A stretch of DNA of 64,000 bases from Escherichia coli O157:H7 (GCF_013167455.1 NZ_CP038328.1), one strand, 5' to 3'. Numbered from the stretch's first letter, positions 19,310 to 22,300 are shown. Numbers are program-made.

Positions 19310-22300
19310 AGTCGTGCACCGACGCCTGATGCGACGCGGGCGCGTCATATCACGCCAAAACCGTAGGCCGCCTCCGCCATGTTAAATGTTAACTGGCATT
19401 GGCAATTTACTCTTCCCGGCCTTTACTCATACTTTTTTGGTCTTCATCCGGATAGTGTTTTTTTAGATATTCCAGGACGTTTTTATTGACCTTGTGTTGC
19501 GTATACACCCACCCTTTCCAGTAATCAGGCTGGTCCAGGTAAACTTCTGGCGGAATGGTGAAATCAGAAAGCGTTAACCATTCGGCTAACAGATCGGGGT
19601 TTCGTTTCTGTATCAACTGCAACAGCATAATCAGCGACATGGCAGAGGCAGGAGCCGTACTATCGCCGCTTAAATACTTCCACACTGTCGACCGGTTCGA
19701 ACGAAAAAGGATCGGTAGCAATGCCCGGTCCAGATTCATTTCATTAAAAATCTTCTCAAATTCATTCATTTAAATTTTCCTGCCTGGCGTAAACCTCTTA
19801 AAAATTGAGATTTATCAAAGAAACGCATTTTAGCACACATCAGGAACCGCTTCACGTTTAGTCCAGAAACAGAATTTATTTCGCTTATCAAAACAAGTCT
19901 TTACTCTTTTTTACATTGAAAGAGCACGAAATGATTTCCTTTTTTATTTATATAAGAAACCATTTTTGTTTCTTATTGATGGTGTTTACGCTTACAACAG
20001 ACAAAAATGCGCTTTACATCACACAAATGGCGGCGTAGATTTCGATTAAATTGCAACGCAGTTTATTTCTTAAAACAATATTATTTGTTTCTTATAGAAA
20101 CATTAGTACGACTTATTTTGAACAAGAGAAAATGAATGAAAACTGTAAACGTAGCTTTACTGGCACTCATAATTTCAGCAACATCCAGCCCTGTTGTTTT
20201 AGCTGGTGATACCATTGAAGCGGCGGCAACAGAGCTTTCAGCCATTAACTCTGGCATGTCGCAATCGGAGATTGAGCAGAAGATTACCCGCTTTTTAGAA
20301 CGCACAGACAACAGCCCCGCTGCGTATACCTATTTGACTGAACATCACTACATCCCTTCTGAAACACCTGATACCACTCAGACTCCCACTGTCCAGACAG
20401 ATCCTGACGCAGGACAAAAAACCGTTGCCGCTACAGGTGATGTACAGACAACTGCCCGTTATCAGAGCATGATCAACGCCCGACAGTCTGCGGTAACTGA
20501 CGCCCAGCAAACGCAAATTACAGAGCAACAGGCGCAGATCGTAGCCACACAAAAAACGCTCGCCGCGACTGGAGATACGCAAAATACCGCGCATTATCAG
20601 GAAATGATTAATGCCAGACTGGCGGCTCAAAATGAGGCTAATCAGCGCACCGCCACTGAACAAGGGCAGAAAATGAATGCGCTGACAACCGATGTGGCAG
20701 TACAACAGCAAAATGAAAGGACTCAATACGATAAACAAATGCAAAGTCTGGCGCAGGAGTCTGCCCAGGCACATGAACAAATTGACAGCCTGTCACAAGA
20801 CGTAACCCAAACGCACCAACAGTTAACCAACACCCAAAAACGGGTTGCAGATAACAGCCAGCAAATTAACACGCTCAATAACCATTTCAGTTCGCTAAAA
20901 AACGAAGTTGATGACAATCGTAAAGAAGCCAATGCGGGAACTGCATCTGCCATCGCTATCGCCTCACAACCACAGGTTAAAACCGGTGACGTGATGATGG
21001 TGTCAGCGGGAGCGGGAACCTTCAACGGTGAATCTGCGGTGTCTGTCGGAACATCATTTAATGCCGGAACGCATACGGTACTTAAAGCCGGTATTTCTGC
21101 GGATACACAATCTGATTTCGGCGCAGGTGTCGGCGTGGGATATTCGTTCTAATATTTCAATCCTCAATATAAATAAGAGCAAGGAAGCTTGCCGGGTTCA
21201 CCTCTTCATTAATTTGTACATTATTTAAGGTTAACAATGATGAATAGCTCCATTAAATCGTTTTCCCTGCTGGCGGTTATATTACTGGCTGGCTGTAGTT
21301 CACCCACTTCCCGCATCGCAGATTGCCAGGCGCAGGGCGTCAGTCATGACACCTGTTACCTCGCAGAACAGCAGCGTCAGGCGGCTATTTTAAGTGCATC
21401 CGAGGCACAGGCATTTAAAAATGCAGAAGCCGCACAACACGCCCAGGCGGCAAAGAAAGCCATTTATAAAGGATTTGGCATGACCTTTAGAATGAGCAGT
21501 AAAAACTTTGCTTATCTCAATGATTCATTATGTGCAATTGATGAAGACAATAAAGATGCCACTGTTTATCAGTCAGGTCTATATAACGTCATTGTTTATC
21601 ATCACACAGGAAAAGTCGCCTTAATGAAAGAAGGCCAGTTTGTGGGTTATTTAAAATGAAGGAGCAAAGGAAAATACCCCTGACGCATATTATGATTATC
21701 GGTGCGTTTATTTTTGCCTTCTTGCAAGTAGTATTATTAGCCTCCCTGGTTCACGCTGTGAATGTTAACAACGAAATCCAGGAAGGCTTATTTCAGTCGG
21801 GGCGCATTATGGTAGAAAGTTTGCAGCATATTCTTTCGGTGCAAACGGGGATTCACTGATTTTCACCCCGCCCGATGATGACAGCAGCCGGAGAGATTTT
21901 CGATAATCGGGCAGTCGGCGCTGTCATCACCGGGGCAGGCATTCGCCAGCGCCAGTAGCTGGTTGCGCATAGATTGCAGTTCTTCGATATGCCGTTCAAT
22001 CTCCGCCACCTTCTCCAGCGTGCGACGTTTGACGTCGGCACTGTGACGCTGCGGGTCGTTAAACAGATTCACCAGCTCGCCGCTCTCTTCCAGGTTAAAG
22101 CCCACCTGGCGCGCCTGGCGCAGTAAGGTCAATTCGTTGAGATGCTGCTGCGTGTAGGTTCGATAACCATTTTCGCTGCGCATCGGCGGCGTCACCAGCC
22201 CCTTCTCTTCATAGAAGCGAATGGCTTTGCTGGTCAGGCCGGTAATTTTTGCTACATCGCTAATGTTCATCGTTCGCGCAACGCCTCCTGTGCTTTGTTA

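What the first reader, a model, noticed from the sequence alone, without database searches (positions are those of the whole stretch)
19954..20101. Two perfect palindromes sharing the half-site GTTTCT/AGAAAC in the AT-rich divergent promoter region
AAGAAAC-N7-GTTTCTT (19954..19974) and GTTTCT-N3-AGAAAC (20087..20101) lie between the divergently transcribed 120-aa hypothetical and the adhesin-like gene. Shared half-sites with different spacing suggest operator sites for a dimeric regulator, possibly the 120-aa protein itself. The strongly AT-rich context also makes H-NS silencing plausible.
Basis: seen in the sequence. Interest (0 to 1): 0.45.

Follow-up and report, generated by a model that had tools for sequence, protein, structure and literature searches.

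The report
Operator array for an adhesin-linked regulator

Summary
Both palindromes exist and are longer than reported: 9-bp arms at 19952-19976 and 7-bp arms at 20086-20102. They are not chance. They are part of a conserved array of seven 15-bp sites (GTTTC-N5-GAAAC type, O1-O7, 19810-20101). The array fills the 366-bp region between z0640 (120 aa) and z0639 ('gmrA', a 338-aa YadA-anchor protein) in O-island 29 of E. coli O157:H7.

In ten homologous loci from several Enterobacterales, GTTTC-N5-GAAAC occurs 15 times (0.22 expected) and neighbouring sites lie 22-23 bp apart. The N3 palindrome is one site (O7).

Relative to a conserved sigma-70 promoter for the adhesin operon, sites lie near +2, +24, +46, -73 and -95. 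Relative to z0640's extended -10 promoter they lie near +3 and -43.

The parts
19407..19769 (-). z0640: 120-aa protein with an XRE/Cro-type HTH N-terminal domain (about residues 1-65) and a helical C-terminal domain. Candidate regulator.
19810..19824 (.). O1: ATTTATCAAAGAAAC (minus strand GTTTCTTTGATAAAT). Centred about +3 of the predicted z0640 start site.
   Evidence: GTTTC columns are 82-91% conserved across genera.
19827..19835 (-). Extended -10 of the z0640 promoter (TGCTAAAAT on the minus strand). A weak -35, GTGAAG, lies at 19850-19855.
   Evidence: TGnTA(A/T)AAT is conserved at the same offset in 12 of 15 loci. No TSS data.
19856..19870 (.). O2: GTTTAGTCCAGAAAC (1 mismatch to the dyad). 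Centred about -43 of the z0640 promoter.
   Evidence: GTTT columns are invariant in alignment A1.
19946..19960 (.). O3: ATTTATATAAGAAAC. Centred about -95 of the adhesin promoter.
19952..19976 (.). First palindrome, ATAAGAAAC-N7-GTTTCTTAT. It is the junction of O3 and O4.
   Evidence: Spacer is 6-8 nt and variable in sequence within Escherichia while the arms are invariant. GAAAC-N7-GTTTC recurs 11 times in 10 loci, as expected for 15-bp units at a 22-bp period.
19968..19982 (.). O4: GTTTCTTATTGATGG. The outer half is degenerate in E. coli; the site is a full dyad, GTTTCTATTGGAAAC, in locus L013. Centred about -73 of the adhesin promoter.
20013..20041 (+). Predicted sigma-70 promoter of the z0639 operon: TTTACA-17-TAGATT. 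TSS expected near 20048.
   Evidence: It is the only promoter-like site found by the scan. The -35 is invariant, the -10 keeps TAnnTT and the 17-bp spacer is kept in all genera.
20043..20057 (.). O5: CGATTAAATTGCAAC (GTTGC in O157; GTTTC in E. whittamii and other genera). Centred about +2 of the adhesin promoter.
   Evidence: G, T, T are invariant in A1.
20065..20079 (.). O6: ATTTCTTAAAACAAT. Degenerate in Escherichia; GTTTCTATAAGAAAT in L008 and GATTC-N5-GAATC in Pseudocitrobacter. Centred about +24.
20087..20101 (.). Centred about +46.
   Evidence: Half-sites are conserved and the spacer varies within Escherichia.
20136..21152 (+). z0639 (published as gmrA): 338-aa protein with a Sec-type N-terminus, a coiled coil and a C-terminal YadA anchor. 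It is the likely regulated target.
   Evidence: Primer mapping.
21237..21859 (+). z0638 (140-aa lipoprotein, 21237-21659) and a 67-aa ORF (21656-21859). They are co-oriented with z0639 and conserved with it in other genera.

Best explanation
The two palindromes belong to an array of seven 15-bp dyad operators (consensus GTTTCT-N4-GAAAC, one half usually stronger) spaced 22-23 bp apart within clusters. This array is the cis-regulatory core of a self-contained module: the regulator gene z0640, transcribed divergently from z0639 (a short trimeric-autotransporter-type adhesin), z0638 (a lipoprotein) and a 67-aa ORF.

O5-O7 cover about +2 to +53 of the adhesin promoter, and O3/O4 lie at about -95 and -73. 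Occupancy would therefore block or trap RNA polymerase, possibly with a loop between the upstream pair and the downstream triplet. O1 (about +3) and O2 (about -43) on z0640's own promoter would give autoregulation.

Shown here: the sites, their conservation, spacing and orientation; the promoter-like elements and their conservation; the HTH fold model; the synteny.

For: - Site array: GTTTC occurs 3-5 times per locus in 9 independent loci, against 0.4-0.8 expected. Core columns are at least 90% conserved in 16 of 20 cases, against 62 of 346 for other columns (p = 1e-8).
- Geometry: over 10 loci, GTTTC-N5-GAAAC with at most 1 mismatch occurs 15 times, against 0.22 expected and a maximum of 3 in 300 shuffles. 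The direct period of 22 or 23 bp occurs 14 and 11 times. GAAAC-N7-GTTTC occurs 11 times. No other spacing stands out.
- Specificity: in the 64-kb window, the only cluster of matches with at most 2 mismatches is 19810-20101, and the overall count is below chance.
- Promoters: TTTACA-17-TAGATT coincides with the invariant alignment block, and its -10 keeps TAnnTT in all genera. TGnTAAAAT followed 2 nt later by GTTTCT is conserved upstream of the regulator gene.
- Synteny: at 98% down to 32% protein identity the gene is always divergent from an adhesin-type gene, with an intergenic distance of 297-408 bp. In 11 of the 14 distinct gene contexts with a called upstream gene that neighbour hits YadA_anchor; in three it is another 174- to 627-aa protein with no Pfam hit. 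One further homologue (L026) has no adhesin gene upstream. The module sits in different chromosomal neighbourhoods.
- Covariation: the Hafnia homologue has recognition helix RNTIFNY instead of RSTVWKY. Its intergenic region has no GTTTC but repeated GTTCT/AGAAC, including AAGAAC-N7-GTTCTT.
Against: - The second half of most sites is weakly conserved, and nearly all strong halves point the same way. A simple symmetric dimer model may therefore be incomplete.
- TSSs are predicted, not mapped.
- In PMC5826968 a z0640 deletion had no motility phenotype. If z0639 really affects motility, strong derepression might have been expected to show.
- z0640, z0639 and z0638 go up and down together in that paper's Table S3. 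This is compatible with a shared outside regulator such as H-NS.
- O1 has no counterpart in Hafnia.
Confidence: 0.6

Rival explanations
1. [not shown]
For: The region is strongly AT-rich (G+C 0.285-0.33) and lies in a horizontally acquired island, the classic H-NS substrate. All three island genes are switched off together on host-cell contact (PMC5826968 Table S3). The z0640 deletion had no reported phenotype.
Confidence: 0.2
2. The second palindrome and the GAAAC repeats act at the RNA level, in the roughly 88-nt 5' UTR of the adhesin mRNA, as a hairpin or a protein- or sRNA-binding repeat.
For: O5-O7 lie between the predicted TSS (about 20048) and the ATG (20136), so the mRNA would carry three GAAAC-type repeats 22 nt apart.
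Against: The left arm of the hairpin is not conserved outside Escherichia. The same motif, in the same geometry, also lies upstream of both promoters (O2-O4). There is no Rfam match in the region. The stem is short and A/U-rich.
Confidence: 0.05
3. The 9-bp inverted repeats ATAAGAAAC (19952-19960) and GTTTCTTAT (20087-20095) flank a 126-bp invertible promoter segment, forming a fimS-like phase switch.
For: Perfect 9-bp inverted repeats do bracket the predicted adhesin promoter, and adhesins are often phase-variable.
Against: A query carrying the flipped segment found no genome with at least 80% coverage among 1413 E. coli genomes that carry the locus. No recombinase gene is in the island. The same half-site recurs elsewhere in one orientation, and other genera lack the 9-bp repeat pair.
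Confidence: 0.02
4. The palindromes are chance products of AT-rich, low-complexity DNA and have no function.
For: Single perfect inverted repeats of this size arise in about 3-6% of shuffles of this AT-rich region.
Against: The hexamer count has P < 2e-4. The cores are positionally conserved across genera at 62% mean identity. N5 and 22-bp geometry recur in every locus.
Confidence: 0.03

Closest known systems
Lambdoid phage immunity regions (lambda, 434 and P22 cI/Cro with the tripartite operators OR1-OR3 and OL1-OL3)
   Same: An XRE/Cro-type HTH protein. Dyad operators of 14-18 bp in clusters of two or three, about two helical turns apart. The lambda spacings of 23-24 bp centre to centre and 6-7 bp spacers are from my own knowledge. 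Divergent promoters are overlapped by the operators. One site near -42 of the regulator's own promoter and one over its start resemble OR2 and OR3 at PRM.
   Different: Not a phage: there are no PHROG hits and no prophage context. The target is an adhesin operon. The protein has no detectable sequence similarity to cI or Cro beyond the fold. There are seven sites spread over 290 bp, and most are strongly asymmetric.
SinR of Bacillus subtilis (master repressor of biofilm matrix operons)
   Different: A different phylum, with no sequence homology shown. No SinI-like antagonist was seen next to z0640. Here the geometry is regular (N5 dyads at 22-23 bp). The motif resemblance may be coincidental.
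Small XRE-type autoregulators next to their targets: anti-CRISPR-associated Aca1/Aca2/Aca10, restriction-modification C-proteins, HigA/MqsA antitoxins
   Same: These are the best structural matches. They are of similar size, with an HTH plus a dimerisation element. They bind palindromes in their own promoter and autoregulate.
   Different: Their partners are anti-CRISPR, restriction or toxin genes; here the partner is a trimeric-autotransporter-type adhesin with a lipoprotein. They usually have one or two operators, not seven. There is no toxin, restriction or anti-CRISPR gene in the module.
H-NS silencing of horizontally acquired adhesin genes in E. coli
   Same: An AT-rich promoter region in an O-island.
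   Different: H-NS has no fixed GTTTC-N5-GAAAC dyad or 22-bp register. No occupancy data were found. H-NS would act in addition to a specific regulator, not instead of one.

Membership tests
[not shown]
   [not shown]
[not shown]
   [not shown]
[not shown]
   Needs EMSA, footprinting or ChIP.
Multipartite repressor operator array at divergent promoters | Dyad-symmetric sites of fixed half-site spacing, present more often than chance | tested here: met
   GTTTC-N5-GAAAC with at most 1 mismatch occurs 15 times in 10 loci, against 0.22 expected. Other spacings give 0-4.
Multipartite repressor operator array at divergent promoters | Neighbouring sites about two helical turns apart | tested here: met
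   A period of 22 or 23 bp occurs 14 and 11 times. Window site centres are 19953/19975 and 20050/20072/20094.
Multipartite repressor operator array at divergent promoters | Sites overlap core promoter elements or start sites | tested here: inconclusive
   They overlap with respect to conserved, predicted promoters. No TSS mapping is available.
Multipartite repressor operator array at divergent promoters | Regulator gene adjacent, and sites conserved together with it | tested here: met
   Synteny holds in all loci from 98% to 32% identity, apart from one homologue (L026) with no adhesin gene upstream. The motif changes with the regulator in Hafnia.
H-NS-silenced horizontally acquired DNA | AT-rich relative to the host genome, located in a genomic island | tested here: met
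   G+C is 0.285-0.33 over 19800-20200, against 0.55 for the window. The island is O-island 29, present in 1415 of 5426 complete E. coli genomes.
H-NS-silenced horizontally acquired DNA | H-NS occupancy, or derepression in an hns mutant | not tested
   No such data for z0639 or z0640 appeared in the literature searches.
Invertible promoter switch (fimS-type) | Both orientations of the segment occur among genomes or reads | tested here: not met
   0 of 1413 genomes match the flipped configuration over at least 80% of the query.
Invertible promoter switch (fimS-type) | A site-specific recombinase encoded nearby | tested here: not met
   No recombinase lies between ybbJ and cueR.
[not shown]
   YadA_anchor covers residues 279-338, model positions 1-60 of 60, at E = 2.6e-11. 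There are coiled-coil-type hits. The N-terminus MKTVNVALLALIISATSSPVVLA|GD looks like a Sec signal by eye. RefSeq names the protein 'YadA family autotransporter adhesin'.

The most novel reading that the evidence does not exclude
Probability: 0.3. Interest if true: 0.6.

Novelty: new member of a known kind. Interest (0 to 1): 0.45.

Why it matters
- It gives a concrete, testable regulatory model, with exact sites, promoters and a candidate protein, for an EHEC O-island whose regulation has not been studied.
- It defines a small protein family with no Pfam or NCBIfam model as HTH regulators that are always linked to adhesin-type genes across Enterobacterales.
- It flags a conflict with the literature. 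The island gene published as a DNA-binding activator of flagellar genes (gmrA/z0639) has every sequence hallmark of a trimeric autotransporter adhesin. The neighbouring gene z0640, dismissed for lack of a motility phenotype, is the one with a DNA-binding fold.
- Resolving this would change how O-island 29 is interpreted in EHEC adherence and motility studies.

Tried and rejected
- Invertible-promoter hypothesis: a synthetic flipped query against 1413 E. coli genomes gave no full-length match. Rejected.
- RNA element: an Rfam E-value search of 19200-20400 found only REP-derived naRNA4 hits at 19203-19356 and nothing in the intergenic region.
- The first AF2 run, with 13 close homologues, was poor (pLDDT 57) and was not used. 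Adding remote homologues from the 1.8-billion-protein search fixed it.
- The genome-contig scan found only 4 loci. Loci came mainly from exact-protein look-ups instead.
- The literature search for a known regulator with a GTTTC/GAAAC operator found nothing relevant.
- A CRP site in the invariant block (TGCGC-N6-TCACA, centred about -32) was considered. The position is atypical and the block is better explained as the -35 region. Not pursued.
- A Cra/LacI-type operator (GAAAC|GTTTC with no spacer) and the RcsAB box (TAAGAAT-ATTCTTA) were considered from memory. Both were rejected on spacing and orientation.
- RstA, the published regulator of the neighbouring O-island 28, acts at tolC28, far from this region. 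Its box (TAATTCAAATTACC) is unrelated.

Full report
**Where we are.** The window is 100% identical to E. coli O157:H7. The finding lies in the small island between ybbJ (18770-19228) and cueR (21863-22270). This is O-island 29 of Yang et al. 2018 (PMC5826968).
- I mapped that paper's primers onto the window. The 120-aa ORF (19407-19769, minus strand) is z0640.
- The 338-aa 'adhesin-like' ORF (20136-21152, plus strand) is z0639, published as gmrA.
- The 140-aa lipoprotein ORF is z0638, and a 67-aa ORF follows it.
- Beyond cueR lies O-island 28, a type I secretion system with a giant RTX/BapA-like adhesin regulated by RstA at a distant promoter (PMC12758282). It is unrelated to the region examined here.

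**The observation.** Both palindromes are at the stated coordinates.
- They extend to ATAAGAAAC-N7-GTTTCTTAT (19952-19976) and TGTTTCT-N3-AGAAACA (20086-20102).
- The intergenic region is 366 bp at 31% G+C, against 55% for the window.
- In dinucleotide-preserving shuffles, an inverted repeat with 9-bp arms appears 5.5% of the time. Two inverted repeats sharing a hexamer appear 2.7% of the time.
- AGAAAC/GTTTCT occurs six times, against 0.34 expected. None of 5000 shuffles reaches six.
- The whole window has 20 copies, seven of them in or next to this region.

- There are 21 clusters in the 5.8-billion-protein collection and 23 representatives in the 1.8-billion library.
- All named members are from Enterobacterales: Escherichia, Pseudocitrobacter, Symbiopectobacterium, Lelliottia, Hafnia, Pectobacterium, Serratia, Klebsiella aerogenes and Yersinia.
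- I fetched contigs for 12 homologues, at 85% down to 32% identity. In 11 of them the gene is divergently paired with an adhesin-type gene, with a gap of 297-408 bp. In most loci that neighbour hits YadA_anchor; in three gene contexts it is another 174- to 627-aa protein with no Pfam hit. The twelfth (P0026, locus L026) has no adhesin gene upstream. The two Escherichia species loci from the genome scan carry the same intergenic region.
- The pair is usually followed by a small lipoprotein-like gene and a gene of about 65 aa. The module sits in different chromosomal neighbourhoods.
- Eleven intergenic regions align at 62% mean identity. The conserved blocks are GCTTTACA...GGCGTA, TGnTAAAAT and a series of GTTTC pentamers.
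- Sixteen of 20 columns of four GTTTC cores are at least 90% conserved, against 62 of 346 other columns (p = 1e-8).
- Each of nine independent loci has 3-5 GTTTC in the orientation of the regulator gene, against 0.4-0.8 expected.

**What the unit is.** I scanned all spacings over ten loci.

| Arrangement (at most 1 mismatch) | Count |
|---|---|
| GTTTC-N5-GAAAC | 15 (0.22 expected; maximum 3 in 300 shuffles) |
| Direct GTTTC repeats, period 22 bp | 14 |
| Direct GTTTC repeats, period 23 bp | 11 |
| GAAAC-N7-GTTTC | 11 |
| Any other spacing | not enriched |

- This is what tandem 15-bp dyads separated by 7-8 bp produce.
- The first palindrome (N7) is the pair of inner halves of two adjacent operators, O3 and O4, whose outer halves have decayed in E. 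coli.
- Within Escherichia the half-sites of both palindromes are essentially invariant. The spacer of the first varies in sequence and in length (6, 7 or 8 nt), and the spacer of the second varies in sequence.
- The seven sites in window coordinates are O1 19810-19824, O2 19856-19870, O3 19946-19960, O4 19968-19982, O5 20043-20057, O6 20065-20079 and O7 20087-20101.
- O5 and O6 are degenerate in O157 but clear in other genera.
- In the 64-kb window the matches with at most 2 mismatches are not above chance overall. Four of them cluster here and nowhere else.

**Promoters.**
- The only sigma-70-like site in 19700-20200 is TTTACA-17-TAGATT on the plus strand (20013-20041). It coincides with the invariant block.
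- In other genera the -35 is unchanged, the spacer stays 17 bp, and the -10 varies only at its inner positions (TAGATT, TAAATT, TATTTT, TATGTT, TACATT). This is the signature of a working -10 element.
- With a start near 20048, O5, O6 and O7 are centred at about +2, +24 and +46. O4 and O3 are at about -73 and -95.
- Upstream of z0640 an extended -10 (TGCTAAAAT, 19827-19835 on the minus strand) is conserved and is followed two bases later by GTTTCT (O1).
- With a start near 19820, O1 is centred at about +3 and O2 at about -43.
- These start sites are predictions.

**The protein.**
- With 23 family members the AlphaFold2 model is confident (pLDDT 91.8, pTM 0.81). It shows helices at 3-11, 15-22, 26-34 and 41-56, then further helices in the C-terminal half.
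- Some family members reach Pfam HTH_3, HTH_26, Xre-like-HTH and MqsA_antitoxin at 1e-4 to 1e-5. IMG annotates some as XRE-family regulators.

**Link between protein and motif.**
- The Hafnia homologue (32% identity) has RNTIFNY where the others have RSTV(W/H)KY in the predicted recognition helix.
- It is again divergent from a YadA-anchor gene.
- Its intergenic region contains no GTTTC or GAAAC at all. Instead it has repeated GTTCT/AGAAC, including AAGAAC-N7-GTTCTT flanked by weaker outer halves. This is the same architecture as O3/O4.
- This is one lineage only. Together with the module's mobility, it still argues for the local protein and against a conserved host factor.

- It would repress the z0639-z0638 operon by occupying +2 to +53, possibly with looping to -73/-95.
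- It would autoregulate through O1 and O2.
- Against a strong effect, the z0640 deletion had no motility phenotype, and the three genes are co-regulated in that paper's RNA-seq.

**Rivals.**
- A host regulator or nucleoid protein: about 0.2. H-NS may well coat this AT-rich DNA in addition, but it does not explain the fixed dyad and register.
- An RNA-level role for O5-O7: about 0.05. The left arm of O7 is not conserved outside Escherichia, and there is no Rfam hit.
- An invertible promoter flanked by the 9-bp repeats: about 0.02. None of 1413 genomes is flipped and there is no recombinase.
- Chance: about 0.03.

**Comparison with known systems.**
- The arrangement works like lambdoid immunity regions and like SinR of B. 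subtilis.
- SinR is a 111-aa XRE protein whose 7-bp GTTCTYT motif occurs in several copies and orientations at biofilm promoters. It binds inverted repeats best (PMC3163267).
- Structurally the nearest solved proteins are Aca, HigA, MqsA and C-protein type autoregulators.
- I rate this a new member of a known kind: an XRE-type local regulator with palindromic operators. Its association with trimeric-autotransporter-type adhesin operons has not been described before.

**Side finding.** The published 'transcriptional activator GmrA' is this 338-aa protein.
- It has a Sec-type N-terminus, a coiled-coil middle and a complete YadA anchor at the extreme C-terminus (E = 2.6e-11).
- Its only 'DNA-binding' Pfam hit is coiled-coil noise (TMF_DNA_bd, E = 0.16).
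- RefSeq calls it a YadA family autotransporter adhesin.
- The paper does not mention a signal peptide or an anchor.
- The direct-activator model for fliA deserves re-examination.

Noticed in passing
window 20136-21152: The gene published as the DNA-binding transcriptional activator GmrA (z0639; PMC5826968) encodes a protein with a Sec-type N-terminus, a coiled coil and a full C-terminal YadA anchor (Pfam E = 2.6e-11). By sequence it is a short trimeric autotransporter adhesin. No significant DNA-binding domain was found (TMF_DNA_bd E = 0.16, coiled-coil noise). The published constructs tag the extreme C-terminus or keep the signal peptide.
   Followed up: partly
[not shown]
   Followed up: partly
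window 20008-20023: The invariant block around the -35 element (GCTTTACATCACA) contains a perfect TCACA with a 3-of-5 partner six bases away. This could be a CRP-like site, centred at about -32 of the predicted start. The bases GGCG just upstream of the -10 are also invariant, without explanation.
   Followed up: no
window 20042-20052: TCGATTAAATT at the predicted adhesin start site resembles the H-NS high-affinity motif TCGATAAATT (from my own knowledge, with one extra base). It is conserved in most Escherichia but not in other genera.
   Followed up: no
window 21237-21859: A 140-aa lipoprotein (weak hits to Lpp/OprI alanine-zipper and TraV lipoproteins) and a 67-aa ORF follow the adhesin gene, and do so in most other genera too. 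This may be a helper pair for adhesin biogenesis, reminiscent of the SadB lipoprotein of SadA (from my own knowledge).
   Followed up: no
L019:3230-5401 (E. coli 042): In 042-type strains the z0640 gene and the whole operator region are retained (about 93-96% identity), but similarity stops at window 20164. The downstream adhesin ORF is 723 aa instead of 338 aa. The passenger domain has been swapped behind a constant regulatory region. RefSeq annotates only its C-terminal part.
   Followed up: partly
window 19203-19356: Two REP-type elements downstream of ybbJ match Rfam naRNA4 (RF02564; 74.7 bits at 19279-19356). They mark the left border of the island.
   Followed up: no
window 25605-41171: A 5188-aa uninterrupted ORF for the giant BapA/SiiE-like adhesin of O-island 28. 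RefSeq annotates this locus in the identical strain as a pseudogene (siiEA, internal stop, incomplete). EDL933 splits it into z0609 and z0615.
   Followed up: no
L002-L004, L008, L010 versus window: The regulator-adhesin module sits on different sides of qmcA-ybbJ in different genera, and next to unrelated genes in Symbiopectobacterium, Lelliottia and Hafnia. The module appears to move as a unit, without any visible mobility gene.
   Followed up: no
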